Positions 15,248-32,992 of a stretch of 37,325 nucleotides of DNA are shown one piece after another. The notes below the pieces were generated by a model that was not told the DNA's origin, did not search any database, and was given only the letters and a program-made list of their open reading frames with translations. The stretch comes from an uncultured Lachnospiraceae bacterium (lineage in GTDB: Bacteria > Bacillota > Clostridia > Lachnospirales > Lachnospiraceae). The stretch is taken from NCBI GenBank assembly GCA_902782975.1, contig CACZPF010000185.1:1-37325 (forward strand), written 5' to 3'. Numbering within the stretch: position 1 is the stretch's first letter; every line of letters starts with the position of its first letter. The position numbers were made by a program, and so were the translations under genes.

Positions 15248-15284
15248 TATCGGGCAGAGGAAAATCACATTCCTCTGCCCGATA
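15248..15284. terminator. Hairpin between convergent genes; probable terminator closing the 12-gene cluster
   Basis: TATCGGGCAGAGGAA-aatcaca-TTCCTCTGCCCGATA, perfect 15-bp stem 1 nt from the stop of 15286..16746. Confidence 0.75.
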
Positions 15285-15285
15285 C

Positions 15286-16746
15286 TTAATTAAACGGCAG
15301 CTCATCTTCTTCAGGGAAATCGAATTCCGGCCATTCTTCACCATTGATTCCATTCGCAAGCCAGCCTTCACCACGGGTTCCATTCCCCGGCAAGCCTTCC
15401 AGGTGGATCCTCTGGCCAGGCAATCCTCCGTGAAAGATATTCAGAAGGTTCAAATCCCCCTCCGGATCTTCTTCATAGTCCAGATGGGCTGCGGGGCAAT
15501 ATACCTCCTCCAGCCAGTTTTTTTCTTTTTCTGTAAGCCGGCGGTTGCACCGGCCATAGGCCTGCAGCAGTTCACTGCCTGAAATTTCCATAGTTATATA
15601 GGATCTGTACGGATCCTTGCGCTTTCGCCAGAAACAGATGATCGTATCGCCGGAGACTACCTCGGAAATATAACTGATCAGGCAGTTTTTCTGTTCATTT
15701 GCTTCTTTTATTATATCTTCCAATGATCGTGGAAGAATGACCAGATTTTCTGCATCCTCATAGCACACATGGTTGTTTCGCGTGTATTGCTGTCGAAGGT
15801 TGTAATTATACTTTTCTCGGTTTCCCAGAATCTGGTACAGTTCCTCCGCCTGATGGATGTGCGTAAGCATATCGTCCACAGACCAGACTGCCGCTGGAAA
15901 AACCATGGACCCGCCCAGTTCTTCCTTCAGTTTTTTTCTGAGTTTCAGATAATCCAGATATTCATAAAAGAGTTCCATTTCGTCGAACATTTCCACAAAG
16001 CGGAAGCTTTTGCTGTTCCATTCCAGCTGCTCTTCCATGCAAAACCTCAGATATTCATACCGTTTTTCTGTTAATGGCAGGTTATTCTTCAGGATATGGC
16101 TGAATCTTCTGTAGACAGCGAGGACTTCCTGCCGTTTTTCTCCGGTCAGAAGAAGATCCTTTCCCCAGGAATTGTTCAGCATCCTGAGAAGGCGGATGGG
16201 GAGTCCTCCCATAAGGCCGGTCGGAGAAGATGCGACCAGATCATATTCATCCATCTTGTGAAGTGTTTCCCCCATATAGTCGAGATTTGCCTTGTAAAGG
16301 ATCTCCATAGGACCTGATCTCCAGGTAGCAAAATACACGTGAAGCAGCAGATGTTCCGGATGATTATTGTATTCCGGCAGATGAATTTCCGGGAAACAGC
16401 TGCCGCACCGCTTTCCGGTTTCTGCAATATCTTCTGGATCTATGGTCACATCTGTTCTTTCGCAGATCGAGAGGAACAGATCTTCTGATTTTTCGTCCAG
16501 CTGTTTTCCCGGCTCCAGAATAATACGCTGTACCCAGTCATATTGTGTCAGATCCCAGAAATATAATTCAAGGATCAGATGTCCTTCCTCTTCAAAAGGC
16601 TTAATAAACAAACGGGGCTTTCCCATGTTCTGAAACCAGATGCTGCACATGGACCACAGCTCTGCCTTTGAAGGCATCCGGAAATCCTCCTGGCATACCT
16701 CCGGCGCTGAAAACATGGATCGTTCTATTTTCCTGTTGATATTCAT
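15286..16746 (-). CDS. PcfJ-like domain protein
   Basis: C-terminal ILPRSLEDIIKEANEQKNCLISY...ICFWRK..DPYRSYITMEI...QAYGRCN matches the PcfJ pattern; GGGGGAG RBS; acidic tail ending EEDELPFN. Confidence 0.72.
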   Translation of the reverse strand: MNINRKIERSMFSAPEVCQEDFRMPSKAELWSMCSIWFQNMGKPRLFIKPFEEEGHLILELYFWDLTQYDWVQRIILEPGKQLDEKSEDLFLSICERTDVTIDPEDIAETGKRCGSCFPEIHLPEYNNHPEHLLLHVYFATWRSGPMEILYKANLDYMGETLHKMDEYDLVASSPTGLMGGLPIRLLRMLNNSWGKDLLLTGEKRQEVLAVYRRFSHILKNNLPLTEKRYEYLRFCMEEQLEWNSKSFRFVEMFDEMELFYEYLDYLKLRKKLKEELGGSMVFPAAVWSVDDMLTHIHQAEELYQILGNREKYNYNLRQQYTRNNHVCYEDAENLVILPRSLEDIIKEANEQKNCLISYISEVVSGDTIICFWRKRKDPYRSYITMEISGSELLQAYGRCNRRLTEKEKNWLEEVYCPAAHLDYEEDPEGDLNLLNIFHGGLPGQRIHLEGLPGNGTRGEGWLANGINGEEWPEFDFPEEDELPFN

Positions 16747-16792
16747 AAACTCCCCCTTTCACCGCAGCAGCCTGATCATAAACATTCCCTGG

Positions 16793-18019
16793 TCACCTTT
16801 CCCGCTCCTGCTCTGGCAGATCCTTCAGATACAGAACCTTTCCCCAGGGCGGTTCCTGATCTGGCCGCCTGGTAAGGATCCACAGGACCGGTATTCCTTT
16901 TGCCTTTTCTTCCTCAGGATATGGGGCAAGACCATCGGTCATGATAATGACAGCTGCCGGTTCCCGGGCAGACTCGTTTTGCGTCCCCTCTGTTCTTCTG
17001 TGGATCTCATCAAAAACCGCATGAAAACTTGTCCCGCCCATGGCAGGCGGCTTTACTTTGGTCAGTTCGTCTATATCGCCGAATTTCTCAGGCTCTCTTA
17101 CCCATGTATCAAAGAAAAATAAAAGGCCTCTCACCTTCTCTATCTGAAGCAGAAGCGATTTAAGTTCCGTCAGTACCATCCGTACATCCTGGCTGCTCAT
17201 GGAACCTGATGTATCTACAAAGAACCACAGATCAGAGATCTCCTCCTCCGGTTCTTCGGAAATATCCGGCAGAACAAAATCCAGATAGGAATATCTCTTT
17301 GCGCCGGGAGAGAAGGTGTAGCGCCATTCCATAAACTGGTCCGTGACGAATTCCTTAAGAATTTCTCTCCAGGGAAGCCGTCCTTTATCTCCCAGTGCTT
17401 TCAGATGCCGGAAGACCCCTGAAGGGGCAGGTATGTCAGAGCATCCCTTCGCAGCCTGAAAAGTATCGTAATTCCATTGATCCTGCAGAGTGGTCCCCTC
17501 TTCTATCTCGCCCCATTGATCATGACGGTCGACCATGGAACCGGCGATTCCATTTCCGGGTTCCGGCTGCTGTTCTATCTTATCTGTCAGCATATGGTAG
17601 ATGGTTTCTGCATCATAGAGGCTTCCTTCTTTTCCGTCCGGTGCCAGATGCATGACTTCCACTTGATCCACCTCAAAAGAAGATCTGCCCATCGATTCCA
17701 GAATCAGGCTGTTTACAACCATGTCGCAGGCGATATTATATAAAAGAGGAATAAAGGTCCTGCCGCGCACACAGTGATTGAGTGAACAGTGCAGAACCTC
17801 ATGCATCAGGACGAAGATCAGTTCTTCGTCCGTAAGCCTTCCGGCGAAAGCAGGATCAAAGACGATCTGGCGCATATCGGTATATGCTGTTTCACATTCT
17901 GCCAGTCCAAAAGAGAGCCGCATCAGCAGTCTTCCGTAAAAGGGGTATTCCTGCAGGATCCTGTTGCGCGCCAGTGTAAGCCTCCCTGCCATTTTTCTCT
18001 TATCTTCCTGTGTGATCAT
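16793..18019 (-). CDS. HExxH putative metallopeptidase fused to a vWA-like domain (DUF2201 type)
   Basis: PFYG.LL, TAYTD, LMHEVLH, NIACD..VN; vWA MIDAS VDTSGSM, FFDT, GGTSF, MTDG. Start set at ATG 18019, after the AAA gene stop. Confidence 0.85.
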   Translation of the reverse strand: MITQEDKRKMAGRLTLARNRILQEYPFYGRLLMRLSFGLAECETAYTDMRQIVFDPAFAGRLTDEELIFVLMHEVLHCSLNHCVRGRTFIPLLYNIACDMVVNSLILESMGRSSFEVDQVEVMHLAPDGKEGSLYDAETIYHMLTDKIEQQPEPGNGIAGSMVDRHDQWGEIEEGTTLQDQWNYDTFQAAKGCSDIPAPSGVFRHLKALGDKGRLPWREILKEFVTDQFMEWRYTFSPGAKRYSYLDFVLPDISEEPEEEISDLWFFVDTSGSMSSQDVRMVLTELKSLLLQIEKVRGLLFFFDTWVREPEKFGDIDELTKVKPPAMGGTSFHAVFDEIHRRTEGTQNESAREPAAVIIMTDGLAPYPEEEKAKGIPVLWILTRRPDQEPPWGKVLYLKDLPEQERER

Positions 18020-18041
18020 ATTCCTGTTTCTCCGTTCATCA

Positions 18042-19304
18042 TCAGAAACCTCCCCCTGCTTTTTCAAAGGCGCGCCGGTTAAGGCGGATCCAGGTGGTAA
18101 AAGAGGCACAGCGCATCAGCGGAAGGCGGATCTCATTTTTTTCGAGCGCTTCCCTGTAAAAGCTGGAAGCAAAGTCCACCGGCAGTCTGTTGATATACCT
18201 GCAGATATTCTCCAGAACGTCGTCCAAAGACAGATCATTTTGCGCAGACACGACGTTATCCGAAATGATCTTCCCTGTTTCCTGTGCCAGGAGCCGGGCA
18301 TTTACTTTGTCCAGGTATGCAAGAATTGTCCGGATGGCGGCCCAGGCCACATCCTGCTTTTTGGGAAGAATGCGGCATCTTCCTGCCAGGATATCCGCAA
18401 GGACGGGGATATCTCCATTTGTCCTGCACCAGGCCTCAAATTCCAGCCCTTCGGGAAGGCCGATGGAAGAACAGATATTGTTGTGAAGACTGTCTGGGAA
18501 TGCGCCGCTGCCTGAATACAGAAGGTGCATATCCCTCGAAACAAATTCCCAGGTTCTGGGGGAAGGATAGGCAAGCTCTCCCTTTTTCAGATCTCTGGTA
18601 TTCCGGAGAAGTTTTTCCGGATGGTCGGCAAGATAACCTGTGACAAGGGGATGTACGCCCGTTTTTTTTGCCCATTCCTGCCACGAGACGATATCTGCCG
18701 TAATATTATAATGTTTGAATCGATTGGCAAGGGGCAGGGGCATCTCGTAAGAGACTCCCTTATCATTCAGCCGGTTTCCGGCCCCCATGATCAACAGATT
18801 AGACGGGAATGTCACGGTGCCGATGGCACGGTCGTAAACGATCTGGTAAGCCGCCGCCTGCACCTGCCGCGGAGCGGACGAAAGTTCGTCCAGAAACAGG
18901 ATGTTGATTACATCCTCACTGTCGTCGAACAGAAATTCTTCCGGGGGAAGCCATTCTGTGATATGCCTTTCCCTGTCCGGAAAGGGTACCCCCATAAAAT
19001 CGGTAAGCGCCCGCAGCATGACCCGGATGTCCCTTAGGATCACGGTTTTTCCCGTTTTCAGAGCCAGTTCCTGCCGGATCTGCTGAAGGGCGGCCGATTT
19101 TCCTACACCGGCAGGTCCCCAGAGGAACCGGGGATCCACTGTATTCATCAAAGCTCCTGTGCGGATCACGGCTTCGCAGTACTCCACGGTTTCTTTAACA
19201 AACGCCCCTACACTAACCGAAGGGATATTCAGTTCCAGAACATCGACCATTTCAGCCATAGACAGTTTTCTCCTTATCAGATTTCTCTTTTTATCAGATT
19301 TCAC
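18042..19304 (-). CDS. MoxR-type AAA+ ATPase
   Basis: Walker A WGPAGVGKS, Walker B LFLDEL, sensor AGN, Arg finger LANRF, PSPRTWE. Start uncertain (GTG 19304 or ATG 19259). Confidence 0.88.
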   Translation of the reverse strand: MKSDKKRNLIRRKLSMAEMVDVLELNIPSVSVGAFVKETVEYCEAVIRTGALMNTVDPRFLWGPAGVGKSAALQQIRQELALKTGKTVILRDIRVMLRALTDFMGVPFPDRERHITEWLPPEEFLFDDSEDVINILFLDELSSAPRQVQAAAYQIVYDRAIGTVTFPSNLLIMGAGNRLNDKGVSYEMPLPLANRFKHYNITADIVSWQEWAKKTGVHPLVTGYLADHPEKLLRNTRDLKKGELAYPSPRTWEFVSRDMHLLYSGSGAFPDSLHNNICSSIGLPEGLEFEAWCRTNGDIPVLADILAGRCRILPKKQDVAWAAIRTILAYLDKVNARLLAQETGKIISDNVVSAQNDLSLDDVLENICRYINRLPVDFASSFYREALEKNEIRLPLMRCASFTTWIRLNRRAFEKAGGGF

Positions 19305-19350
19305 TTCTTATCAGATTTCACTCTGTCAGATTTCACTTCTTACTGGTTTC
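19274..19350. repeat. 16-17-bp tandem repeat (4+ copies) at the helicase/AAA junction
   Basis: ttatcagatttctcttt / ttatcagatttcacttc / ttatcagatttcactc / tgtcagatttcacttc / ttactggtttc. Confidence 0.85.
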
Positions 19351-22300
19351 CCGTAATCTGTTCGTCCAGTGCATCCAGCTCTTTCTGCAGCTGGACGATG
19401 CGGGATTCATAGATGTTTCCTTTATCCAGTTCTTCTCTTGCCTGTTTCATCTGATCTTCCAGTACGCGGCAGGCGGTTTCTGTCTGCTCTGCTCTGGATG
19501 AGAGTCCCTCCAGCACATGGTCAAGACGCATGCAGCAGCCAAGAGGCCTGTCTGTCTTCATTCCTGCCCGGAAGGTTCCGCCCTCCGGACATCTGAGCAG
19601 AACATAAGGATGCTCTGCCTCCATGTTGTCCGGCAGTACCACGTCAAATCCCTGATACCAGTCAAAAACCTGTTCCCGCGATGTACCGGCATTCCCGGAA
19701 AGCGCCAGGAGCAGTTCTTTTCCGAAGGTCTCCCGCTCCTCCTGGGGAACGGTCTGTTTATTCTTCTGATAAAATGCGTCCGCCTTTTTCAGAACGGTCA
19801 GGAGATGCCTCTTCTTTTCCAGTTCTATCGGTGTTTCCAGCAGAAGGTTCTCGAACCGGTCCAGCTCCTTCTGTTTCTCGCGGCGGGCCATATTAGTGCG
19901 TTCCAGAAGATTGGCAGTTTCCACCCTCTTTTTGACCAGAGGATTGCCGATGGTCAGCGCTTTGATCTCGCTGTAGGTCAGGACCGTATCTGACACATCC
20001 CGTTCCTTCCGGTGGTGAATACTTAATGTCCCGTCCAGAAAGGAATCGATAAAACGCTGCTTATTCTCCAGGATCTGCCAGAGATAAGCGTCAAAGGATT
20101 TCTCCGTGCAGTAGCAGAATTCATACACACGTCTGTTCCGGTTGCCCTGGCGGAGCATCCGGCCTCTTCTCTGGCGAATGTCGGATGGCTTCCAGCATAC
20201 ATCCAGATGATGAACAGCAATGCATCTTTTCTGTACATTCACACCTGTTCCCAGCTTGCCTGTCGAGCCGAGGAGCACCCGGATCTCTCCGTCATTAAAG
20301 GCTTTAAACAGCTTGTCCCGCCGGGCTTCTGTCGCTGCTTCGTGGATATAGGCGATCTCCCTTTCCGGAATCCCGAGCCGCATCAGATGGAATTTCATCT
20401 CGTCATAGATGTTAAACGTGTCCTTGGGCGTGCCGAAATCGCAGAAGATCAGCTGGGTCGTCCCGGGATATTCCCTGTAAAGATCGTATACCTTTCCGGC
20501 ACATACCATGGGCTTACATTCCAGCGTCATGTACTGCGCCTCCGGCATCACAAGTCCCGGATGCGTGCTGCACATACGGCCTTCCATGGTCAGCTTAAGG
20601 CCATTGTCTTCCTTGCTGGAAACCTCACCCAGATGAATGGCTTCGTTCCTCCGGCGCATTTCATCAAAGAATTCTTTCTGGATCTGAAGACGTGGAACGA
20701 TCACCGACTCCCGCCTGCCAAAATCCGGAAGGTCCATGTCCTTTATATCGCCACGGCTGAACTCGCACACATTGGAGAACAGCGCCATCAGCTCCGGCAG
20801 ATTGTGAAACTGGCTGAAGCGGGTCTTAAACCGCCCGTCGATCATCATGTCCACTTCAAAATTTGTATTCTGGTCGCAGAAGGTATTGACCCATTCCGCA
20901 AAGCCGGATATCCTGAGCATTTCCATCTCCTCCGGCTGGAGGTATTTCATCATCACGTAAAGGTCCGCCAGAGAATTCGTGATAGGCGTCGCTGTCGCAA
21001 AGATCACACGGCCGCCCTTTTTCTCGATAAAATGAGCCTTTTCCATCAGTTCGTCCGATTTTTTGCTGCCCTTCCTTGCACAGCCGGAAACGCCGCCCAG
21101 ACGATAGGGCAGGGTGATGTAGCGGTAATTATGTGCCTCGTCCACCACCAGACAGTCAAATCCAAGGGATTCAAAGCAGGCTGTTTCTGTCTCTTTTAAG
21201 GTCTCCAGCAGTTTTTTATATTCTTTCTGGAGTCTTGCGAGAGCACTTTTCATCCTTCCGGCAGTCGAGGGCAGCCGGGCCGCCTTAAGTGCCGCACCGG
21301 CCTGATGGATTTCTTTCAACTTGCGGCTGAGGTAGTAATCTCTTGACATGGTCAGCATATCGAAGGTGCTGTGAGCCATAAAAACGATCCGGGTTTCGGC
21401 TTTACAGATTTTACGCAGGGTCTCCTTACGTACCGCAGGGCGGAAGGTTTCCGGTGTGACAGCCAGGACCTCTTCTTCGGGATACATCAGATGCCAGACA
21501 GATAAAGATTCCGACAGTACCTGCCCCGGGACGGTAATTAATGCCTTCTTTACCGCGCCGATCCGCAGCAGCTCATGGACGCCGGCTGTATATTCAAAGG
21601 TTTTACCTTCGCCGACATCCCCGGCCAGCAGCACATTCTGCCCGGAAGCCTTGATCCGTTCCACCGGTCCTTTCTGATGCTCCTGGAGCTTCACCTCCGG
21701 GTTCAGGTCCGGAAGATCCTGATGGGAACCGTCATATCGGCAGATCGCATAACCGTAAGTGTCACAGTATACTTCGTAAAGGCGTTCCTGGATCTTCGGA
21801 TGGGCGGCGACCCACTCGCGGAAGGCTTTGATCTGGTCTTTCTGCTTTTCACGGGCCAGGAGGGTCTCCCCCTCATTCAGGACATATACCGTCTTCGTGC
21901 CGGAGACGGCCTGGCTTTTTCCCGCTGAACTGTATTCCGGTTTGTCCACCGGATCCCGCACTTCAATTTCCGTACCGTTTATCGTATGTTCAAAGATCTT
22001 GACACCACTGATCCTTGGGGTCCCATAACGGCTGGTATTATTAAAATCATCCAGGATGAGTCCCCCTCTGATGCTGCACTTCCTGTGCAGCTGGTCAAAT
22101 TCGATCTGGGGTTCCGTCACCATGTTCAGAAGATCCCGTATGAATATTTTAAGATAATAATGCGGGATCCAGGAAGCAGCCGGCGAAAAATCGATCTCGT
22201 CCATATCCGGTCTTGCCGGCAGGAGTTCTGTCAGAAGATCGATATTCTCATGGAAACGTCCGTTTTCTCCAAAGCGCGCTTTCAGATCCGCAAGCTTTTT

Positions 22301-22606
22301 GCGGATATTTCCGCGTCCCATCTGCTGACGGGTGAGAAGGTCTCCAGTATCCGGGTCTTCCCAGTAGAGCTTTCCGCGTAATTCACGGTCCAGCTGAAGC
22401 GGTGTAAGGCCCGATGTTTCTTCCATATAGGCAAGATCCACCCTGCCCAGCTGGTTGACAGACATATAAAAAGCATCCTTGGCACTGATCTTCTTTCTCC
22501 CGGGATCTTCTGCCTGCCCCGGGGCCAGCTCTTCATCCGCAAGGCCGATGACCAGATCATCCATATCAAGCGGAATCGGTTTAAAATTCTGCAAAGCTGC
22601 GATCAT
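19340..22606 (-). CDS. SF2 (SNF2-related) helicase resembling the C-terminal half of DarB-like/ICE methylase-helicases; no methyltransferase domain
   Basis: GRVDLAYM, ASWIP, YGTPRI, motif I AGDVGEGKT, II VVDEAH, III ATATP, F.NLPEL, QLIFCD.GTP, GTGVNVQ, VI QRRGRMLRQGN; GAGGAG RBS. Confidence 0.85.
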   Translation of the reverse strand: MIAALQNFKPIPLDMDDLVIGLADEELAPGQAEDPGRKKISAKDAFYMSVNQLGRVDLAYMEETSGLTPLQLDRELRGKLYWEDPDTGDLLTRQQMGRGNIRKKLADLKARFGENGRFHENIDLLTELLPARPDMDEIDFSPAASWIPHYYLKIFIRDLLNMVTEPQIEFDQLHRKCSIRGGLILDDFNNTSRYGTPRISGVKIFEHTINGTEIEVRDPVDKPEYSSAGKSQAVSGTKTVYVLNEGETLLAREKQKDQIKAFREWVAAHPKIQERLYEVYCDTYGYAICRYDGSHQDLPDLNPEVKLQEHQKGPVERIKASGQNVLLAGDVGEGKTFEYTAGVHELLRIGAVKKALITVPGQVLSESLSVWHLMYPEEEVLAVTPETFRPAVRKETLRKICKAETRIVFMAHSTFDMLTMSRDYYLSRKLKEIHQAGAALKAARLPSTAGRMKSALARLQKEYKKLLETLKETETACFESLGFDCLVVDEAHNYRYITLPYRLGGVSGCARKGSKKSDELMEKAHFIEKKGGRVIFATATPITNSLADLYVMMKYLQPEEMEMLRISGFAEWVNTFCDQNTNFEVDMMIDGRFKTRFSQFHNLPELMALFSNVCEFSRGDIKDMDLPDFGRRESVIVPRLQIQKEFFDEMRRRNEAIHLGEVSSKEDNGLKLTMEGRMCSTHPGLVMPEAQYMTLECKPMVCAGKVYDLYREYPGTTQLIFCDFGTPKDTFNIYDEMKFHLMRLGIPEREIAYIHEAATEARRDKLFKAFNDGEIRVLLGSTGKLGTGVNVQKRCIAVHHLDVCWKPSDIRQRRGRMLRQGNRNRRVYEFCYCTEKSFDAYLWQILENKQRFIDSFLDGTLSIHHRKERDVSDTVLTYSEIKALTIGNPLVKKRVETANLLERTNMARREKQKELDRFENLLLETPIELEKKRHLLTVLKKADAFYQKNKQTVPQEERETFGKELLLALSGNAGTSREQVFDWYQGFDVVLPDNMEAEHPYVLLRCPEGGTFRAGMKTDRPLGCCMRLDHVLEGLSSRAEQTETACRVLEDQMKQAREELDKGNIYESRIVQLQKELDALDEQITGNQ

Positions 22607-22657: not shown

Positions 22658-23053
22658 TCAGGTTTTCCCCTTCAGCTTTCCCCTGTCAAACAGGAGCGTT
22701 CCAAGCAGGACAAACAGAATGATCTCGATGCTTTCAAATACAAAGCTTAACTGGATAAATGTAAGGAAGGCATTGATTCCTGCTTCTCCGAATATGTAAT
22801 CAGATACCAGAAACCCTGCCCGGATGTTTACCGGGACCATGACGATGGAGGTCATCACGAGGATCCACAGGCCGGCTCTTTTCCGGCAGACCGGAAGCAG
22901 GCCTGCCAGCACAAAGATCATTACTACAGCCAGGATCGTCCACCAGAGAGATCCTTTGACTGCCGCCGTCAATGAGATGGAGAACGGTATTCCGATCTGC
23001 GTCCCCATGATCAGCTTCTGGTATTTCATTTTTCTTCTGTCATTTTCTGCCAT
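22658..23053 (-). CDS. Small hypothetical membrane protein, about 4 TM
   Basis: AGGAGGAGG RBS; four hydrophobic segments; co-directional within the cluster. Confidence 0.75.
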   Translation of the reverse strand: MAENDRRKMKYQKLIMGTQIGIPFSISLTAAVKGSLWWTILAVVMIFVLAGLLPVCRKRAGLWILVMTSIVMVPVNIRAGFLVSDYIFGEAGINAFLTFIQLSFVFESIEIILFVLLGTLLFDRGKLKGKT

Positions 23054-25800: not shown

Positions 25801-25833
25801 AAAATAAAAGCATACCGCTCCTACGGTATGCTT
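25801..25833 (-). terminator. Hairpin with U-tract in front of Hsp70-C (terminator, attenuator or operator)
   Basis: AAGCATACCG-N6-CGGTATGCTT (25808-25833), followed on the minus strand by TTATTTT. Confidence 0.6.
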
Positions 25834-25927: not shown

Positions 25928-27574
25928 TTAAAATTCGACTTCCTCATTGCCAAGCAGGGCCCTGGAGTGAAGGGTCATTTCGATCCTGGTATTTCCGGTG
26001 GGTTCGGTCCCGTAAACATAGAGGGTACCGTCCTCCTGCAGCCGGAAGGATACCTCTATGACTGCTCCTTTTGGCAGCTGCTGACTGATGGGAAGAACAC
26101 ACTCCCCGATCAGAAGGGTTTCGTCCTGCTCCAGGTAATGTTCGTCCGAAAAATTTTCATATACCCGGAGAGCCACTCTTTTCATATTGTCTTCGGAAAG
26201 GCCGAACCTGGTTCCCAGTTTTTCCGCCGGGAGCGGTTCCCCCCGGAAGATCAGGTTATAGATCTTCTGCGTGCTGCCGCCGGCATCTTCCACGGTAACA
26301 CCCAGGCCATAACTTCTGGAGCTGATGCGCTGCACCGGTCTGACGACAGAGCGCACCTTTTCGATTTCTTCGTGCTGAATGGTCTCTTTAAATTTCTGCC
26401 AGCGCTCTTCATCTTCCAGGATAATAAACGGATCCCCGGTTCCGGCTTTTCCAGCTTCTATTTCCTTCCTGGCAATTTCTGCTGCCTTCATCCTGGCGTA
26501 AGAGGCGGCCCCGCAGGCAACTGCTTCGTCCACATTTCGCCGGATGATATCCGGATCCTCAAGATCAGGCCAGATCTCCCGGATCAGTTCACGGATCTGG
26601 AGCATCCGGGTAGCACCGCCCACCAGAATGATCTTGTCGATCTTTTCGATCCCCTTTTTCTCCAGATTGTCTTTGACTCTCCGGATAACAGTCTCTGTTT
26701 TATCGCGCAGGAAGCGGGTACAGCGGTCAAATTCCTCTCTCGTGATCCGGACTTCCACCGGACCGTCCATACTGCGCACGACAAAACGGGCATTGTTTTT
26801 CTTCTCATTCGACAGGACTTTTTTGGCAAATTCCACATCCAGGCAGAGCTGCTGCTCGTCGTCCACCCGCAGGCTTCTTCCGGATAGAAAAGTCTCCCGC
26901 ACGTATTTTGTGAGCGCATCATCCCAGTCGCTGCCACCCAGTCCGATGTCCCCGTCGATCTCCAGCTCCTGGATGCAGTCCTGCGTCACTCTTGCCGCGA
27001 TCAGGTCCAGCGTGCCTCCTCCCAGATCAATGACCAGTACTACTTTGTCGGTAAGATCGGACAGGGTCGTACAGTGGACCAGGGCCGCAATGGGTTCGTC
27101 CAGGATATCTATGACATTGAGGCCGGCCAGCTTCCCTGCTTCCAGCGTCGCTTTTCTCTGAAGATCTCCAAAATAAGCAGGCACGGTGATCACAACGTTC
27201 CTGATCTTCCGGTCCAGGGCCGATTCTGCATTTTCCACCGCTCTCTCCAGCATAAAAGCCGAAAGCTCCTGTGGCGAAAAGGTCCTGTTCTCCAGGGTGA
27301 TCGCCTCGGTCGTCCTGCCCATCAGCCTCTTAAAGCGGGTCGCCGTCCTGTCCGGATGCAGGATCGCTATCTCCTTTGCCACTTTTCCCACTACATGGCT
27401 CCATCCGTCCTCATCTTCCTGGGATCTTTCGAAAAAAACCGCACTGGGCGTAAGGTTTGTCCCTTCAAAATCCGGGCAGCACGCACCATCTCTGGCCACT
27501 TCGTCGTAATAGCTTACCACTGTATTCGTCGTCCCAAGGTCGATCCCGATGACTTCACATATAAATCGTTCCAT
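25928..27574 (-). CDS. Divergent Hsp70-family protein B (548 aa, no lid)
   Basis: IGIDLGTTN, TPSAV, FKRLMG, VITVPAYF, DLGGGTLD, LGGSDWD, LVGGATRM, AVACGAA. Confidence 0.92.
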   Translation of the reverse strand: MERFICEVIGIDLGTTNTVVSYYDEVARDGACCPDFEGTNLTPSAVFFERSQEDEDGWSHVVGKVAKEIAILHPDRTATRFKRLMGRTTEAITLENRTFSPQELSAFMLERAVENAESALDRKIRNVVITVPAYFGDLQRKATLEAGKLAGLNVIDILDEPIAALVHCTTLSDLTDKVVLVIDLGGGTLDLIAARVTQDCIQELEIDGDIGLGGSDWDDALTKYVRETFLSGRSLRVDDEQQLCLDVEFAKKVLSNEKKNNARFVVRSMDGPVEVRITREEFDRCTRFLRDKTETVIRRVKDNLEKKGIEKIDKIILVGGATRMLQIRELIREIWPDLEDPDIIRRNVDEAVACGAASYARMKAAEIARKEIEAGKAGTGDPFIILEDEERWQKFKETIQHEEIEKVRSVVRPVQRISSRSYGLGVTVEDAGGSTQKIYNLIFRGEPLPAEKLGTRFGLSEDNMKRVALRVYENFSDEHYLEQDETLLIGECVLPISQQLPKGAVIEVSFRLQEDGTLYVYGTEPTGNTRIEMTLHSRALLGNEEVEF

Positions 27575-27597
27575 ACTGTCACCTGCCCTTCCCGCCT

Positions 27598-29220
27598 TTA
27601 CAGCATGACAAGCTTATCCAGCCGTCTTTTTTCCCGCTCGACAGCCTCTTCGTTTAAAAGTGCTCTGGATTCCAGCTCCACCTGGATCCGGTTTCCGCCC
27701 TTTTTCTCTTTTGCCTCCACCTGCAGGCGGCCGTCCTCCCGAATGGTAAAACGTATCAGGATGGGGGAATGCTCCGGAAGGTCCTTGTCGATCGACAGTG
27801 TGCAGGTCCCCAGCAGCCATTTTTCATCCGGATCCACATACCTTTCAAATAAGGTGGTCTCGTAAATACGGATATTGACAATCCGCTGATTGCTGTAGGC
27901 CGTGTAGAGTTCCTTCGTCACAGAGACCGGCACCCCGTCCCCTTTCAATATGAAATGATAGATTTTTTCCTCCCCGTCGTCCCCGATCAGGGCGGCCAGC
28001 CCATAGCTGCGGGAGCTGATCCGGTTCAGGACTCTCGGGGTGAACATCTTTCGCACTTCATAGAGTTTATCGGTATTTCTGCTGCCTGGCTTCTGACCAT
28101 TATATTTGATCCAGCCATAGATGGCCGCTCCGTTGGCTACGGCCCGGTCTGCGTCCCCTGATCCCATGCGGCTGTAGGGAAAGAATTCCGCCAGAAGTGT
28201 CCGGATCTGGGGCATACGCGCAGCCCCGCCGACAAGCAGAACTTCGTCCACGCTTCCGATGCCTTTTTCGTACAGATCCGTCATCAGATCTTCCAGAACA
28301 CTTTTCACCCTTTTCAGGAGATGCTGCGTTACATTTTCAAACTCCTCCCTTGTAATGTGGATCTTCTCTTCCCCGGCTTTCGTATGGACATACATGTCTG
28401 CTTCTTTTAAAGACGAGAGATTCCTTTTCAGCTGTTCCACAGAGAGCCAGAATTTCTGCCTGTCCTCCGTGTTGAATTCTTTTCCCTTCAGGTACGTATT
28501 CAGGATATGGCAGCCCAGGGCATAGTCCCAGTCGCTGCCGCCCAGATGCACATCCCCGCGGTTGGCTGCCTCGTTGATGGAATCCTCCGTTATTTCAGCT
28601 GCCATCAGATCCAGTGTTCCGCCGCCCAGGTCGAATACCAGAACGGTCTTCCCCTCCAGATTCAGCAGCCGTTCACAGTCAAACAGAGAGGCGGCCGGTT
28701 CGTCGATAATGTCAACATTCCTTTCCTCAAGGCCGGCAGCCCGCGCGGCTTCCAGCGTCGCCTTGCGGCCTGCATCGTCAAAATCCGCCGGCACTGTGAC
28801 CACGGCATGGGTGACAGGCGCGCCGAGTTCCTCCTCTGCATCCCTCAGAACACTTTTCAGCACCATGGCGGAGAGCATCTGGGGAGAATAACTGGTTCCG
28901 TAAATTTTCTTAAAGTCCCGGGTCCGGCCCATCTGCCGTTTAAACAGCATGGCTGTACGGTCCGGATAGATGTCCGCACTCTCCCTGGCCTCCTTGCCCA
29001 CCACGTAATAATATTCTGTCCCATTTTCTGATTTCTTTTCGTCAAACCGGATGACCGACGGCGTCAGGCAGCTGCCTGTGCTGTTTTCTATACAGGAAGC
29101 TCTGCCCGTGGTCTCATCATACAGGCTGATCAGCGTATTGGTCGTGCCCAGATCGATCCCGACAACGGTCACAGCGCCTTCAGCCTCCGTCCGGTAAATC
29201 GTCTTATCCTTCTTCTCCAT
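27598..29220 (-). CDS. Divergent Hsp70-family protein A (540 aa, no lid)
   Basis: VGIDLGTTN, TPSVI, FKRQMG, VVTVPADF, DLGGGTLD, LGGSDWD, LVGGAARMP, AVANGAA. Confidence 0.92.
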   Translation of the reverse strand: MEKKDKTIYRTEAEGAVTVVGIDLGTTNTLISLYDETTGRASCIENSTGSCLTPSVIRFDEKKSENGTEYYYVVGKEARESADIYPDRTAMLFKRQMGRTRDFKKIYGTSYSPQMLSAMVLKSVLRDAEEELGAPVTHAVVTVPADFDDAGRKATLEAARAAGLEERNVDIIDEPAASLFDCERLLNLEGKTVLVFDLGGGTLDLMAAEITEDSINEAANRGDVHLGGSDWDYALGCHILNTYLKGKEFNTEDRQKFWLSVEQLKRNLSSLKEADMYVHTKAGEEKIHITREEFENVTQHLLKRVKSVLEDLMTDLYEKGIGSVDEVLLVGGAARMPQIRTLLAEFFPYSRMGSGDADRAVANGAAIYGWIKYNGQKPGSRNTDKLYEVRKMFTPRVLNRISSRSYGLAALIGDDGEEKIYHFILKGDGVPVSVTKELYTAYSNQRIVNIRIYETTLFERYVDPDEKWLLGTCTLSIDKDLPEHSPILIRFTIREDGRLQVEAKEKKGGNRIQVELESRALLNEEAVEREKRRLDKLVML

Positions 29221-29749
29221 AAGGCTTCCTTTCGTAACGGCTTACCTTAACATTGATTTTTTTCAGCACTTTATCCATGTACAGGTAACCTTCTGTATAA
29301 ACCTTCCGAATCTTTTCATTTTCCTCTTCCCGGTCCGTCACCTCAGCCTCAATGACCTTATGGCGGACAGGGTCAAATGAATCTCCCGGTTGTGCCGTGA
29401 TGATCTCCACGCCGTTATCCTCCAGGAATGCTTCCATTTCCTGGAGTCGGTAGCCAAGATACTGGATGGCCAGATTTACGGAATCATCTTTTTCTTTGGC
29501 AGTGCTCAGATATTCCATATCCCGCAGCGTGTTATCCCTCATCCGGATCATGCCGTTCAGATACCGTTTTTCCGAATGTGCCTTCAGATCACGGTATTCC
29601 GTGTAGAACAGATCCTGGGTCCCCCTGTATTTCTCCAGGATCCTTCCCGTCTCGTCAGCTGTCTGCTGAATATTTTCCAGCTTATGTTCCACAGGCCGGA
29701 GGGATGCTTTTATGGTCCCTTTCTGTTTTTTAAGCATACGTTTTTTCAT
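29204..29749 (-). CDS. GrpE-like nucleotide exchange factor (divergent)
   Basis: Helical N-half, then L...GVE...GDSFDPVRH......KIRKVYTEGY....VLKKINVKV (GrpE head pattern); ATG 29749 behind AAAGGAG (alternative GTG 29767); overlaps Hsp70-A start by 17 bp. Confidence 0.82.
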   Translation of the reverse strand: MKKRMLKKQKGTIKASLRPVEHKLENIQQTADETGRILEKYRGTQDLFYTEYRDLKAHSEKRYLNGMIRMRDNTLRDMEYLSTAKEKDDSVNLAIQYLGYRLQEMEAFLEDNGVEIITAQPGDSFDPVRHKVIEAEVTDREEENEKIRKVYTEGYLYMDKVLKKINVKVSRYERKPYGEEG

Positions 29750-29763
29750 CGCTGCTGCTCCTT

Positions 29764-31821
29764 TCACATTCCCCGGCCGGATTCTGTCTGATTGTAAAGC
29801 CTGTCAAAATACTGGATCAGTTTTTCTCTTGCATACCGGGTCCGGACCAGATTCAGCCAGCCAAAGACCGGCGTATGCGCATCCTCCCGGTCATATTCCA
29901 GCCGCACGTTGTCGCCGTACCGGAGGATCCTCCCAAAGTCCGCAGGTTCATCGCTCTTGTTGATGTAGGCCCGTTTTAAATGAAGCCCGACCTCATCTCC
30001 CAGAACAAAGGCGAAATCCAGCACCGTGGAAGCCATGGGGATCTCATATGCTTTTTGTTCATTGAAAACGATCATTCTGGTAGCTCCGGATTCCAGGTTC
30101 TTTTCAAGCCATCTTGTCAGAGACCTGACAGCCTCCGGGGTTCTGAGGTATTCAAACCAGCGCACTGTCGCATGAGGAATGTCAGATGCCGGGTCATCCT
30201 TAAAATGGTCCGAAATGATCTCTACCTTGTCTCCCGGTCTCAGCCGCTGGTGGATCTGTATCCTGGAATGACTGTCATTTAAAAAGGCGTATTTTGCGCA
30301 GATCCCGATGTTTGGGTTGAGCAAAAAGGCAAAGTCCAGCACGGAAGCTCCTTCGCGGATCCGTGCCGGGGTATTATCTTTTTTATAGACGGTGATCTTC
30401 CTGCAGCCGATCTCGTCCGTATCCTGCTCCTCTGCAGGTTTCGGCTCACCCTGCAGGATCCTTCCGTGCATAAATTTCAGATGCTCTTCTTCTGACTGAA
30501 TATAGAGACGGTAGATATTATCGTACCGGTCCTTCATCTTATAAAAGACGATGCCGGTTTCGGGATCCTTTTCCAGCTTGAAAATCGTAAACCGGTAGGA
30601 AGACCGGTGAAGCCTCTCATAATACTGGAAGAACACGGTCTCCGGTTTTTCCGGACAGGTTTGTCTTGTGCTGAAATACACATCGAAAACAGGGACATTC
30701 TTTTTCGTCATAAGGCTCCGGACATCCCCGTCCACCAGTTTGTCGTTGATCTCCTTTAAGATATCGTCCGCATATCTTTCCGAAAAATCAAAACCGTAAA
30801 TATACTGGCCAAGAACTGCATCTTCTATCACCATCTGCTTTACGGTATCGATCAGGCCGCCTTTTCTTTCCAGTGTATCATGGTTTTTAAGGCGCATATC
30901 CCGGTAGCCCTCGAGGATCGCATCGTACATGGGCCGGTTTTCGATCTTAAGACAGAGGGAACCGAGGATCTGGGCCAGTCTGCAGGCACCCAGATGCTGC
31001 GCCGCAGGAATGATCACGCTGCGCGTATGCTCTGCCTTGGCCCTTTTCTGATCCTCCGGGAAGGAATCGATGGTCGTAAGATTGTGGATCCGGTCGGCGC
31101 ATTTTATAAATACGCCGTTCCGGTTATGGCCGGAAGCCAGATGGGAAAGGAACTTCTGATCCGAAAGCACATCCATGTCCCTTTTCTGGGTACCTTTGTT
31201 TTTTTCGATATAGTCATTCACTTTTGTGACGGTGTCCACCATCTCCGCCACGGCAGGACCGAATTTCTCTTCCAGTTCTTCTATGGTGACGCCGCAGTCC
31301 TCCACGACATCGTGAAGAAGCGCCGCGGCGATCACGTCGCTGTCGTGCCCTCCTTCCGCGAGGATGCGGGCAACTGCGATCGGATGCGTGATATAGAGTT
31401 CACCTGTCGATCTGCGCTGACCCCCATGCTTTGCAAAGGCAAACGCGAAAGCGCTCTCCAGCAGGCTCGTCTTTGGAGCGCCATGCTTTCTCATCTCTTC
31501 CAGGACATCGTTGAACTGCCGTTCCGCTTCGAGGCGCTCAGCCCGGGTGGGCAGGGTTTCCGGTTTTTTAGAGTCAGGCTTCGGTGGTGCAGGCGTTTCA
31601 GATGCAGATGTTTCAGGTGCAGGCGCTGCAGGCACAGGTGTTTCAGACGCAGACGTTTCAGGCACAGGCGTTTCAGGCACAGGTGTTTCAGACGCAGGTG
31701 TTTCAGGCTCCGTCCGGGGCACTGCCCCGGGCTCTGTCGGAGCCGGATCGTCAAGTATTACAAGGCCTCCGGTAATATTCATATCTTTCATCCTGTAACT
31801 TCCTCCCTTCCGGGATGTCAT
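29764..31821 (-). CDS. Atypical RelA/SpoT homologue: Pro/Glu/Thr-rich leader, HD (p)ppGpp hydrolase, degenerate synthetase, two TGS domains
   Basis: HGGQRRSTGELYITHP, AALLHDVVED, KCADRIHN; TGS1 GASVLDFAF...LRPGDKVEII; TGS2 ASTVLDFAF...LRYGDNV. Start 31821 (ATGA overlap) or 31791 (GGAGG RBS). Confidence 0.85.
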   Translation of the reverse strand: MTSRKGGSYRMKDMNITGGLVILDDPAPTEPGAVPRTEPETPASETPVPETPVPETSASETPVPAAPAPETSASETPAPPKPDSKKPETLPTRAERLEAERQFNDVLEEMRKHGAPKTSLLESAFAFAFAKHGGQRRSTGELYITHPIAVARILAEGGHDSDVIAAALLHDVVEDCGVTIEELEEKFGPAVAEMVDTVTKVNDYIEKNKGTQKRDMDVLSDQKFLSHLASGHNRNGVFIKCADRIHNLTTIDSFPEDQKRAKAEHTRSVIIPAAQHLGACRLAQILGSLCLKIENRPMYDAILEGYRDMRLKNHDTLERKGGLIDTVKQMVIEDAVLGQYIYGFDFSERYADDILKEINDKLVDGDVRSLMTKKNVPVFDVYFSTRQTCPEKPETVFFQYYERLHRSSYRFTIFKLEKDPETGIVFYKMKDRYDNIYRLYIQSEEEHLKFMHGRILQGEPKPAEEQDTDEIGCRKITVYKKDNTPARIREGASVLDFAFLLNPNIGICAKYAFLNDSHSRIQIHQRLRPGDKVEIISDHFKDDPASDIPHATVRWFEYLRTPEAVRSLTRWLEKNLESGATRMIVFNEQKAYEIPMASTVLDFAFVLGDEVGLHLKRAYINKSDEPADFGRILRYGDNVRLEYDREDAHTPVFGWLNLVRTRYAREKLIQYFDRLYNQTESGRGM
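31586..31705. repeat. 15-bp coding minisatellite, 8 copies (ETPAS/ETPVP pentapeptides)
   Basis: Units such as ggcacaggtgtttca and gacgcaggtgtttca at an exact 15-bp period. Confidence 0.9.
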
Positions 31822-32918
31822 CCCATACGAACTCTTTTAAGGTAATGATAAAAATCGTCATCATCTCTGTCGGATACAATGACCGAACGAAACAGGTTTT
31901 TTTCCACCATCGAATTGACGATCTCGTCAATATGGAGACGCAGAAGCTGTTTTTTATCTGCCTCACCGATCTCATCCCCTGTATCTTTCTGATACAGTTT
32001 AATGACCATATCAGCCACATCCTCGGTGCCTTCGTAAGTCTTAAAATTGGGATAATGCATTAAAAGGTGCATCCCGATCTCTTCACTGGCCACATTCAGG
32101 CTGGAAAGAGAGAGGGCCACATACTGTACGCAGGGTGAAGACATCCTGCCCTTGGAGACAGATACCATACTGCCAAGACCACCGATATACTGACTGGAAT
32201 TGCTCTGGGGATAATGAAAGATCATCTGAACCTTGTCCCAGGTTCCTTTGTAGCGAAGGGAAATGAAGATATTTTTTTCTGAGTTTTCCAGGTCGCCGTA
32301 GTAGATCTGGCGGCCCATGCGGGAGGTAAGATAATTCCAGGTATTGTCCTCGCCGGACTGCATCTTTACTTCTTTATAAAGAGCATCCGCCTCATCCTTT
32401 TTCATGTTGAAGATCGCGGCGCAGCGGATATGGCTGCGGTTTCTCAGGTCGGAACAACAAAGAAGAAGCCCGCTCTTCAGCGCATCCGCCGTATCCTTGT
32501 ATTCTCTGCCTTTAAAGGATGAAGTATCATAATAATAGATCTGATAAAGGCCTTTGAGGTTAAGCCTTCTCGCCTCCGGGAGGTCGTCCTGATTCTCCTT
32601 CAGGCTGCTGACAGCCATAAGATCCGTAAAAAGAAGTTCGTCGATCGTATAATCAAAAAGCTTGCTGAGTTTGTATAACAGGGGGAAAAGACTGGGATTG
32701 TTGTCGGATACTTTAAGTCTGGTCAGCATGGAAGACGCACATCCGATATATCTGGCCAGTTCGATCTGATTTATCTGAAAGGCTGTTTTGATGTATTCAA
32801 CGTTTGCGGCAAGAGTCCGGTTGATGGCCTCCTGCATCTCCATACTGGAAGCTGTCAACTTTTCGGCTCTGTTCTCTAACTCTTTGTGTATGTTACCGAT
32901 ATCTTTTTTTATCGCCAT
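31818..32918 (-). CDS. XRE/Cro-like HTH protein with a large uncharacterised C-terminal domain
   Basis: INQIELARYIGCASSMLTRL.....P....LYKLSKLFDYTIDELL is a typical XRE HTH; AAGGAGGAGG RBS; first gene of the cluster. Confidence 0.75.
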   Translation of the reverse strand: MAIKKDIGNIHKELENRAEKLTASSMEMQEAINRTLAANVEYIKTAFQINQIELARYIGCASSMLTRLKVSDNNPSLFPLLYKLSKLFDYTIDELLFTDLMAVSSLKENQDDLPEARRLNLKGLYQIYYYDTSSFKGREYKDTADALKSGLLLCCSDLRNRSHIRCAAIFNMKKDEADALYKEVKMQSGEDNTWNYLTSRMGRQIYYGDLENSEKNIFISLRYKGTWDKVQMIFHYPQSNSSQYIGGLGSMVSVSKGRMSSPCVQYVALSLSSLNVASEEIGMHLLMHYPNFKTYEGTEDVADMVIKLYQKDTGDEIGEADKKQLLRLHIDEIVNSMVEKNLFRSVIVSDRDDDDFYHYLKRVRMG

Positions 32919-32963
32919 AAAAAAGCCTCCTCCTTACATAATATCCGTTCATGTGATGATATT

Positions 32964-32992
32964 ATTATAAGGGGGAGGCCCTCATTCGTCAA
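32964..32992 (-). promoter_or_regulatory. sigmaA-type promoter of the 12-gene cluster
   Basis: TTGACG (32992-32987), 17-nt spacer, TATAAT (32969-32964); AT-rich upstream. Confidence 0.85.

What the first reader, a model, noticed from the sequence alone, without database searches (positions are those of the whole stretch)
15248..32992. Candidate undescribed 12-gene system: HTH, alarmone hydrolase, GrpE, three Hsp70s, M50 protease, TM protein, SF2 helicase, MoxR, vWA/peptidase, PcfJ
Seen: 12 co-directional genes running from a TTGACG-17-TATAAT promoter to a perfect 15-bp hairpin, with overlaps or short gaps (HTH/RSH ATGA overlap, GrpE/Hsp70-A 17-bp overlap, most other gaps under 60 bp), placed between pheT and nth-hicB. 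Known: MoxR AAA+ ATPases work with vWA partners as remodelling chaperones; GrpE is the Hsp70 exchange factor; HD-domain RSH enzymes degrade (p)ppGpp-type alarmones; PcfJ and DarB-like helicases are typical of mobile elements and phages. Inference: two NTP-driven chaperone modules, two metallopeptidases, a nucleotide-signal enzyme and a helicase under one regulator resemble a threshold-controlled conflict (anti-phage) or specialised stress system rather than housekeeping. I know of no described system with this content.
Basis: partly seen in the sequence, partly recalled or inferred. Interest (0 to 1): 0.9.

Follow-up and report, generated by a model that had tools for sequence, protein, structure and literature searches.

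The report
Alarmone-hydrolase-headed modular conflict operon
Twelve genes in a row in a cattle-gut bacterium belong to a rare, patchily spread gene family that starts with the same two genes (a DNA-binding regulator and an enzyme predicted to destroy, but not make, the stress alarm signal ppGpp), followed by swappable chaperone, protease and DNA-motor modules; it is likely an untested defence system against viruses or other invading DNA.

Summary
The 12 minus-strand genes, the promoter and the terminal 15-bp hairpin are real. One 166-bp gap holds a second terminator-like hairpin. The exact 12-gene set was not found elsewhere, but the parts travel together.

The fixed head is an XRE-HTH/beta-barrel protein followed directly by a long RelA/SpoT homologue (23 of 23 informative loci). 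That enzyme keeps its hydrolase motifs, has lost its synthetase motifs and carries a duplicated TGS-helical unit. GrpE plus lid-truncated Hsp70 follow in 13 of 22 loci.

Genome G063 carries 10 of the 11 gene families, plus FtsW, a PBP and a double-GTPase; one contig join there is inferred. On a MoxR+vWA tree, all 6 head-bearing genomes fall in one 7-member clade (100/100). The family is rare: 5 of 400 family genomes and 5 of 135 congeners. A conserved hairpin overlaps the promoter and the ribosome-binding site in 12 of 12 close loci.

No PADLOC system matched. The closest known kinds are the predicted GTPase/Hsp70-GrpE and MoxR-vWA conflict systems (Kaur 2020), whose defining parts are missing here. 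Verdict: a new variant of NTPase conflict operons with an apparently undescribed alarmone-hydrolase control head. The defence role is inferred, not shown.

The parts
32964..32992 (-). sigma70-type promoter TTGACG-17-TATAAT
   Evidence: 11 of 12 matches. A -35/17/-10 layout is present in 10 of 12 close loci, an 18-bp spacer in 1, and no match to the pattern in 1.
32921..32983 (-). conserved inverted repeat: left arm holds the -10 box, right arm the Shine-Dalgarno; followed by a T-run and the ATG. Candidate read-through insulator or operator
   Evidence: -29.4 kcal/mol, z -5.5; present in 12 of 12 close loci, z -3.2 to -9.3; inner-arm swap test p 5e-5, and 2.5e-4 on 8 less related loci
31818..32918 (-). 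head regulator, 366 aa: XRE-type HTH (about 28-106), 8-stranded avidin/Cap15-like beta-barrel (115-273) and a helical tail
   Evidence: AF2 pLDDT 92; VIA-align Z 9.2 for the HTH, Z 9.1-7.4 for barrels, Cap15 7n34 Z 8.0 tied with avidins; 139 cluster representatives at E<=1e-30
29764..31821 (-). RSH*, 685 aa: disordered repeat N-terminus, HD alarmone-hydrolase domain with intact motifs, pseudo-synthetase, two TGS-helical units; no ZFD/ACT
   Evidence: best fold match is hydrolase-only SpoT 7qpr, E 5e-21
29204..29767 (-). GrpE-like nucleotide exchange factor, 187 aa
   Evidence: PF01025 1e-15; the genome has its own grpE-dnaK on C209
27598..29220 (-). Hsp70-A, 540 aa: nucleotide-binding motifs present, altered linker, lid truncated
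25928..27574 (-). Hsp70-B, 548 aa, 40% identical to A; same type as the first Hsp70 of related loci
25808..25833 (-). internal terminator-like hairpin (10-bp stem, followed by TTATTTT) in the 166-bp gap
24178..25761 (-). Hsp70-C, 527 aa; second-type paralogue (47-48% to the second Hsp70 of L014, L021 and G063)
23087..24121 (-). M50-family intramembrane metalloprotease (HELAH, 4 predicted TM)
   Evidence: homologues linked to the head in G528 (34%) and G063 (40%)
22658..23053 (-). 131-aa protein with 3 predicted TM; follows M50 in both other loci
   Evidence: no Pfam hit; 32% in G528; start of a homologue in G063
19340..22606 (-). DarB-like SF2/SNF2 helicase without a methylase domain, 1088 aa
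   Evidence: phrog_10089 2e-151; DEAH and motif VI present; Walker A read from the sequence
18042..19304 (-). MoxR-like AAA+ ATPase (GPAGVGKS, LFLDE)
   Evidence: phrog_1297 3e-67
16793..18109 (-). zincin (HEVLH) fused to vWA (DTSGS), DUF2201 type
15286..16746 (-). PcfJ-domain protein, 486 aa; accessory
   Evidence: PF14284 4e-19; a homologue lies inside one other head-bearing locus (L017); 0 of 5 genomes
15248..15284 (.). perfect 15-bp hairpin between PcfJ and the convergent hicB; likely bidirectional terminator

Best explanation
The locus is one member of a rare family of modular operons that begin with an XRE-HTH/beta-barrel regulator and a long RelA/SpoT homologue predicted to be hydrolase-only, and it likely works as an inducible conflict (anti-phage or anti-mobile-element) system. 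Proposed working: the regulator would repress or gate its own promoter, with the beta-barrel binding a small ligand or RSH* (inferred). The hairpin over the promoter would block read-through from the upstream gene, by termination and by hiding the ribosome-binding site, so that only the operon's own promoter yields protein (structure shown, function inferred). RSH* would hydrolyse (p)ppGpp-type alarmones and so set a threshold or keep the cell active during the response (motifs shown, activity inferred). The private GrpE with lid-truncated Hsp70s and the MoxR with zincin-vWA would be ATP-driven assembly or remodelling switches. The methylase-less DarB-like motor would act on DNA, and M50 with the TM protein at the membrane (all inferred). 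This copy looks like a reduced, rearranged version of a larger operon that also holds transglutaminase, FtsW, PBP and double-GTPase genes.
For: Fixed head: RSH* directly follows the regulator in 23 of 23 informative loci, about 19 distinct. GrpE-Hsp70 follows in 13 of 22 informative loci (same calls). G063 holds 10 of the 11 window gene families in one orientation; its first contig join is bridged by L022 at 99%, the second, inside the helicase, is inferred. Helicase-MoxR-vWA lies on the head's contig in G061 and tail-to-tail with RSH* in G486 (join inside RSH* inferred). In the same 400-genome draw the MoxR subtype is in 2 of 5 head-bearing genomes against 7 of 395 others (Fisher p 0.004). 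On a MoxR+vWA tree all 6 head-bearing genomes sit in one clade of 7 (100/100) and the sister clade has 0 of 6; 4 of 500 label shuffles do as well. Distribution is patchy. Cargo in related loci is typical of predicted conflict systems: DO-GTPase2, vWA, PP2C and kinases, TatD, and a DUF4011 helicase matching PADLOC PDC-S37 at 3e-192 and Hhe at 5e-87. Kaur 2020 (PMC7159879, sections 27 and 29 read) predicts GTPase systems with HSP70+GrpE in firmicutes. RSH* keeps H170 in 62 of 62, D171 in 59 of 62 and D243 in 58 of 62 two-TGS homologues, while the synthetase motifs are replaced; this parallels hydrolase-only SpoT of A. baumannii (PMC9974481, passages).
Against: No experiment shows defence, and none of the 12 proteins matches a PADLOC model beyond generic helicase, NBD or HTH scores. 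No clear toxic effector is present. The helicase-MoxR-vWA triple also exists without the head, and the head exists alone in at least 5 loci (L038, L039, L041, L042, L054), so the linkage could reflect shared island residence. Of 14 other head-bearing genomes only 5 show the MoxR cassette (three of the 14 were tested with the helicase only; many are incomplete). G228 is in the linked clade but has no head (86% complete). FtsW, PBP, kinase/PP2C and M50 cargo fit an envelope-stress role equally well. The internal hairpin may split the transcript. GC and GC3 do not differ from pheT, and no integrase or empty-site joint was found.
Confidence: 0.45

Rival explanations
1. A specialised envelope or protein-stress system: the head senses a metabolite, RSH* damps the stringent response, and the Hsp70/GrpE, M50 and MoxR modules, with FtsW-PBP and kinases in relatives, remodel proteins at the membrane and the cell wall. 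No role against invaders.
For: FtsW-PBP follow the Hsp70 block in L015, L018, L019 and L022 and occur with PP2C and kinases in G061; M50 has its best NCBIfam scores to peptide-maturation proteases, far below cut-off.
Against: The DarB-like helicase, PcfJ and DUF4011 helicase point to DNA-level conflict. Rarity (about 1% of family genomes) and shuffled gene order are unlike housekeeping stress regulons.
Confidence: 0.22
2. Domesticated cargo of a mobile element that works against host defences: HD alarmone hydrolase, DarB-like helicase, PcfJ and peptidase-vWA/MoxR are all known from phages or conjugative elements.
For: PHROG matches for the helicase, MoxR, vWA and PcfJ. Jumbo phages carry HD-alarmone phosphodiesterases and a MoxR with peptidase-fused vWA (PMC7824862, passages). 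A MobA/MobL relaxase lies about 10 kb downstream in G528.
Against: The regulator was found in no viral contig (0 of 223 pattern matches). The 32 viral RSH hits are generic HD domains, and the two inspected are ordinary Rel genes. No integrase, relaxase or structural phage gene lies in the window.
Confidence: 0.15
3. The head pair is a translation-stress buffer that travels with foreign aminoacyl-tRNA synthetase genes: it removes ppGpp raised by uncharged tRNA, and the downstream genes are unrelated passengers.
For: An aaRS gene is the direct upstream neighbour in 5 of 18 loci with context (pheT, trpS, metG twice, hisS); binomial p 5e-7 to 2e-4 under assumed base rates of 0.9-1.8%, post hoc. 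These aaRS look xenologous: G528's only metG is 62% identical to G065's and 52% to a congener's; the window's pheT type scored E<=1e-40 in 8 of 135 congeners. The tRNA-reading TGS histidine is kept in 30 of 31 single-TGS homologues.
Against: 13 of 18 loci have other neighbours. The histidine is lost in the window and in 42 of 62 two-TGS homologues. aaRS 3' ends may simply be insertion hot spots. The co-inherited cargo is not explained.
Confidence: 0.1
4. A mosaic of independent cassettes gathered at one hot spot, with no shared function.
For: Each module also occurs alone; the 12-gene set is unique among the loci seen; there is an internal terminator-like hairpin.
Against: 10 of 11 families recur together in G063 at 34-50% identity, and the MoxR+vWA tree clusters by presence of the head.
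Confidence: 0.08

Closest known systems
GAP1-N2-type DO-GTPase systems, HSP70+GrpE theme (Kaur, Burroughs, Iyer, Aravind 2020, PMC7159879; computational)
   Same: Mobile firmicute neighbourhoods with private HSP70 and GrpE. Relatives of this locus carry a DO-GTPase2-like gene between two Hsp70s and an NBD-like domain fused to a transglutaminase.
   Different: The window has no GTPase, GAP1, FNIII or DnaJ. GAP1-N2 was not detected even in the GTPase-bearing relatives. The sections read mention no RSH/HTH head, FtsW-PBP or DarB-like helicase.
MoxR-vWA ternary conflict systems (VMAP, iSTAND, FtsH, beta-propeller; PMC7159879)
   Same: MoxR AAA+ next to a vWA with MIDAS-type motifs, plus further linked genes.
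   Different: The vWA is the zincin-fused DUF2201 type, and none of the four defining third components is present; the partner is a methylase-less DarB-like helicase.
MoxR + metallopeptidase-vWA pair of jumbo phages (PMC7824862; phrog_1297/1314)
   Same: Same two-protein architecture.
   Different: Chromosomal here, coupled to a helicase, with no virion genes.
Hydrolase-only long RSH SpoT[Hs] of Moraxellaceae (PMC9974481; PDB 7qpr)
   Same: HD motifs kept, pseudo-synthetase, TGS histidine lost; best structural match.
   Different: About 22% identity; ZFD and RRM/ACT absent, TGS-helical unit duplicated; accessory second copy beside a normal Rel; always paired with a dedicated regulator.
Cap15 / avidin-like beta-barrel ligand-binding domains
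   Same: 8-stranded barrel, Z 8.0 and rmsd 3.5 over 101 residues to 7n34.
   Different: Tied with avidins and designed barrels, 9% identity; fused to an XRE HTH instead of two TM helices. Ligand unknown.

Membership tests
GAP1-N2 DO-GTPase system, HSP70/GrpE theme | DO-GTPase gene | tested here: not met
   None in the window; the G063 GTPase finds no match in G000, 77% complete. Present weakly in relatives (PF19993, E 9e-6 and 3e-3, about at or below cut-off).
GAP1-N2 DO-GTPase system, HSP70/GrpE theme | GAP1 downstream of the GTPase | tested here: not met
   Not in the window; PF20013 over cut-off in 0 of 4 genomes. The 395-493 aa gene after the GTPase in relatives has no Pfam hit and could be a divergent GAP1.
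GAP1-N2 DO-GTPase system, HSP70/GrpE theme | FNIII-repeat protein, often fused to DnaJ or TPR | tested here: not met
   No FNIII or DnaJ Pfam hit among the 12 proteins.
GAP1-N2 DO-GTPase system, HSP70/GrpE theme | HSP70 plus GrpE genes | tested here: met
   Three HSP70 and one GrpE.
MoxR-vWA ternary systems | MoxR AAA+ adjacent to vWA | tested here: met
MoxR-vWA ternary systems | VMAP, iSTAND, FtsH or beta-propeller third component | tested here: not met
   No such Pfam or NCBIfam family among the 12 proteins.
Long RSH, hydrolase-only [Hs] | HD catalytic motifs | tested here: met
   R137, E141, H146, H170-D171, E174-D175, D243-R244, N247 present and conserved across 93 homologues.
Long RSH, hydrolase-only [Hs] | synthetase domain kept but catalytic motifs lost | tested here: met
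   The GRxKH, YQSLH and EIQIR motifs of five housekeeping Rel sequences are replaced; the fold is kept.
Long RSH, hydrolase-only [Hs] | measured alarmone hydrolysis without synthesis | not testable with these tools
   needs an assay
Canonical Rel/RelA/SpoT | TGS-helical-ZFD(CC)-ACT C-terminal region | tested here: not met
   Second TGS-helical unit in place of ZFD/ACT; TIGR00691 209 bits against a cut-off of 499.
RSH subfamilies named after 2011 | assignment by published subfamily HMMs | not testable with these tools
   The later classification is recalled, not seen; searches found no text. None of the 11 long-RSH groups in PMC3153485 (passages) is described with this architecture.
PADLOC-DB 2.0 systems | proteins scoring as system components in the required combination | tested here: not met
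   8 of 12 had no hit; helicase best 64 bits, generic; two Hsp70s and the HTH under 17 bits.
Cap15-like nucleotide receptor | beta-barrel homologous to Cap15 that binds a nucleotide | tested here: inconclusive
   Z 8.0, tied with unrelated barrels; binding not testable.
Housekeeping DnaK system | full lid, hydrophobic linker, DnaJ partner | tested here: not met
   235-244 bits against a DnaK cut-off of 648; linker region reads R[IV]SSR[ST]YG and the C-terminus is short (the canonical linker is recalled); no J-domain gene.

The most novel reading that the evidence does not exclude
The HTH-barrel/RSH* pair is a new class of alarmone-gated master switch: a stringent-factor derivative whose dead synthetase and doubled TGS serve as a sensor or scaffold, coupled to a ligand-binding repressor and insulated by a promoter-embedded terminator, which turns on interchangeable NTPase defence modules. 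It would link (p)ppGpp turnover directly to transcriptional control of immunity.
Probability: 0.25. Interest if true: 0.9.

Novelty: new variant of a known kind. Interest (0 to 1): 0.7.

Why it matters
Hydrolase-only long RSH enzymes have been characterised in Moraxellaceae. An independent firmicute lineage with a duplicated TGS and a dedicated transcription factor would be a new branch of alarmone signalling, and it can be tested at once with two genes and standard ppGpp assays. The locus also joins two predicted but untested conflict themes (GTPase/Hsp70-GrpE and MoxR-vWA) behind one regulator, which gives a way to learn what induces them. The promoter-embedded hairpin is a compact, testable design for insulating a mobile operon from its landing site.

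Tried and rejected
Complex prediction of regulator with RSH* gave no verdict (median 0.31, mark 0.32) and is not used as evidence. A search for longer, fused forms of the barrel found none among 7990 candidates, which is weak evidence. Viral contigs: regulator absent, RSH hits generic. Rfam found nothing in the window, so no T-box at gathering score. No tRNA gene in the window. The idea that the island integrated into the pheT 3' end was dropped: the homologous C-terminus continues right after an in-frame stop and no remnant lies at the far end. No joint skipping the island appeared in 4 low-depth runs laid across both ends; contigs cannot show absence. RNA-run contigs lie on RSH*, Hsp70-C and the helicase, but DNA in the library is not excluded, so expression is not shown. 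A class-level search gave 3 weak HTH-only hits among 399 other genomes scored, with only 5 candidates scored per genome; these were not examined. An order-level barrel search gave 1 of 400, a shorter homologue without RSH* beside it; it is left out of the 23-locus count because of its weak score (E 2e-10). L058 ends inside the regulator and was also left out. Consensus folding of the hairpin showed little covariation in the outer stem (2 of 13 pairs with double changes), as expected where the -10 box and ribosome site are fixed; the support comes from the inner arms. The hairpin was not evident in 8 more distant loci (by inspection only). Atlas searches named no family for the barrel or the TM protein. 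The pooled Fisher test used 5 of 13; the right count is 5 of 14, so only the unbiased test is quoted. The metagenome loci L017-L022 could not be extended beyond 10 kb. Literature searches that found no description of this head or gene set: (open-access library only). The two supplementary files held for PMC7159879 had no hit even for GrpE, so its neighbourhood tables were probably not seen and could list members of this family.
Full report
Observation. Twelve ORFs run on the minus strand from 32918 to 15286, between pheT and the convergent nth-hicB genes. The promoter at 32992-32964 is the best-scoring site of the region, the junctions are as described, and the terminal stem is a perfect 15 bp. 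One gap is 166 bp and holds a hairpin with a T-run on the coding strand, so the unit may be two transcripts. The genome (77% complete) has its own grpE-dnaK and a Rel, so these genes are extra copies. Contigs of eight public runs, mostly recorded as bovine gut, cover 16 to 30 of 30 bins of the stretches laid, so the block exists in other strains and is not an assembly artefact. The family is inferred to be Lachnospiraceae, because a same-family genome has the same match coordinates as a record with that title.

Distribution. RSH* has no full-length counterpart in 60 relatives; only housekeeping Rel and short HD hits appear. The regulator profile finds 5 of 400 family genomes, 5 of 135 congeners and, with a barrel-only profile, 1 weak hit among 400 order genomes. 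Protein searches give 34 close regulator homologues, 139 cluster representatives at E<=1e-30 and 197 RSH* homologues in two size classes, with one or two TGS units. The family is rare, patchy and, where taxa are known, mainly Bacillota.

What travels together. In 23 of 23 informative loci (about 19 distinct) RSH* directly follows the regulator. GrpE and an Hsp70 come next in 13 of 22. After that the cargo varies: transglutaminase, TM protein, FtsW, PBP and a DO-GTPase-like gene in L015, L018, L019 and L022; vWA, PP2C, kinases, a DUF4011 helicase and then helicase-MoxR-vWA-GrpE in G061; M50 and TM directly after RSH* in G528; PcfJ in L017. G063 is the fullest relative: head, GrpE, Hsp70, transglutaminase fusion, TM, FtsW, PBP, GTPase, a 399-aa protein, second Hsp70 (48% to Hsp70-C), transglutaminase, helicase, MoxR, vWA, M50 and the start of TM, which is 10 of the window's 11 families. 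The first contig join is bridged by L022; the second falls inside the helicase and is inferred. In G486 the head lies tail-to-tail with helicase-MoxR-vWA, with a join inside RSH* inferred.

The helicase-MoxR-vWA triple is a module in its own right: 7 of 9 family MoxR loci have it, and 1 of the 9 lies on a contig with the head. Earlier notes of this scan reported the same triple; they are unchecked AI notes and I rely on my own count. What this locus adds is the link. In one draw the MoxR subtype is in 2 of 5 head-bearing genomes against 7 of 395 others (p 0.004), and on a tree of 13 MoxR+vWA pairs all 6 head-bearing genomes fall in a clade of 7 with 100/100 support. The exception, G228, shows no head but is 86% complete. 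Against this, only 5 of 14 other head-bearing genomes show the cassette, and at least 5 loci have the head alone. The window is best read as a reduced and reshuffled member: the transglutaminase-to-GTPase block is lost, the first Hsp70 is duplicated (tree, A and B unresolved within the first type), and PcfJ is added.

The head proteins. RSH* keeps the HD catalytic residues; the synthetase motifs of five housekeeping Rel sequences are replaced; a second TGS-helical unit stands where ZFD and ACT would be. Its best structural match is the hydrolase-only SpoT of A. baumannii, for which PMC9974481 (passages read) reports a pseudo-synthetase and loss of the tRNA-reading TGS histidine. That histidine is lost here and in 42 of 62 two-TGS homologues but kept in 30 of 31 single-TGS ones. 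The regulator models with pLDDT 92 as an XRE HTH, an 8-stranded barrel and a helical tail. The barrel matches avidin-type and designed barrels and Cap15 about equally, so a ligand-binding role is plausible but the ligand is open. The three Hsp70s show the usual nucleotide-binding motifs, a changed linker and a short C-terminus, and no J-domain gene is present.

A conserved cis-element. In 12 of 12 close loci an inverted repeat pairs the -10 region with the ribosome-binding site and is followed by a T-run and the start codon (z -3.2 to -9.3). The segments were chosen around the feature, so the z-scores are generous. RNA starting at the operon's own promoter (start assumed 7 nt after the -10 box) lacks the left arm and folds at only -0.4 to -5.8 kcal/mol. 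The variable inner arms pair better with their own partner than with those of other loci (p 5e-5; 2.5e-4 on 8 loci after dropping 4 near relatives). The simplest reading is an insulator against read-through; an operator for the HTH is the alternative.

Mechanism. I commit, at 0.45, to an inducible conflict system: the regulator and the hairpin keep the operon quiet and context-independent, RSH* controls alarmone level, and ATP-driven Hsp70/GrpE and MoxR/vWA modules assemble or release DNA- and membrane-acting parts. Shown: gene content, motifs, folds, linkage, patchiness, hairpin. Inferred: every activity and the defence role. Rivals are an envelope or protein-stress system (0.22), counter-defence cargo of a mobile element (0.15), a translation-stress buffer tied to foreign aaRS genes (0.10; 5 of 18 loci have an aaRS directly upstream, a post hoc count) and a functionless mosaic (0.08).

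Comparison and novelty. It works like the NTPase-thresholded systems predicted in PMC7159879 (outline, passages, sections 8, 13, 27 and 29 read) but fails membership of both classes: no GTPase, GAP1 or FNIII in the window, and none of the four MoxR third components. The peptidase-vWA/MoxR pair and HD alarmone hydrolases are described in jumbo phages (PMC7824862, passages). The RSH groups in PMC3153485 (passages) include none described with this architecture; later classifications could not be seen. A 2026 preprint on ParA immunity (10.64898/2026.10.19.760177, passages) does not describe it in the passages shown. Ten searches of the open library found no account of the head or the gene set; supplementary neighbourhood tables that I could not see may list members. 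Verdict: new variant of a known kind, interest 0.7. The two-gene head, rather than the 12-gene list, is the part most worth testing.

Noticed in passing
window 33085-35478 (-): pheT has an in-frame TAA eight codons before the homologous end; four close homologues run on by eight residues. Real truncation or assembly error was not settled by the reads.
   Followed up: partly
window 33085-36533; L013 3252-4247; L015 363-2315; L052 8854-10806; L038 10577-11896: Aminoacyl-tRNA synthetase genes sit directly upstream of the head in 5 of 18 loci, and several look like foreign copies that replaced the native gene.
   Followed up: partly
L014 471-9609; L021 424-6371; L013 987-3213; L052 1509-8610: Radical-SAM clusters, some with aaRS-like proteins or a class I LysRS, lie just upstream of the head in several loci; possible biosynthetic clusters for amino-acid or nucleotide analogues.
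   Followed up: no
window 31562-31708: 15-bp tandem repeats encode a Pro/Glu/Thr-rich disordered N-terminus of RSH* that homologues lack; length varies between strains.
   Followed up: partly
L027 15233-16815; L116 7209-8276: In G061 and G228 the helicase-MoxR-vWA cassette is followed by an RpoD-like sigma factor gene, in G061 with a short GrpE-like gene between.
   Followed up: no
L124 2-1414; L022 15061-16734; L019 15174-16808: A 470-560 aa protein after the first Hsp70 joins a weak Hsp70-NBD-like part to a transglutaminase-like domain.
   Followed up: no
L114 5022-17005: In G355 an unlinked PcfJ-helicase-MoxR-vWA cassette lies between a WYL gene and GmrSD plus reverse transcriptase genes.
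   Followed up: no
window 19263-19342: Four 15-17 bp direct repeats between the helicase and MoxR genes; one extra copy in two other runs.
   Followed up: no
window 14919-15197 (+): HicB/UPF0150-like gene with no HicA partner seen, convergent on the operon's terminal hairpin.
   Followed up: no
L038 11938-12103: TwoAYGGAY RNA match next to hisS and the head in G070.
   Followed up: no
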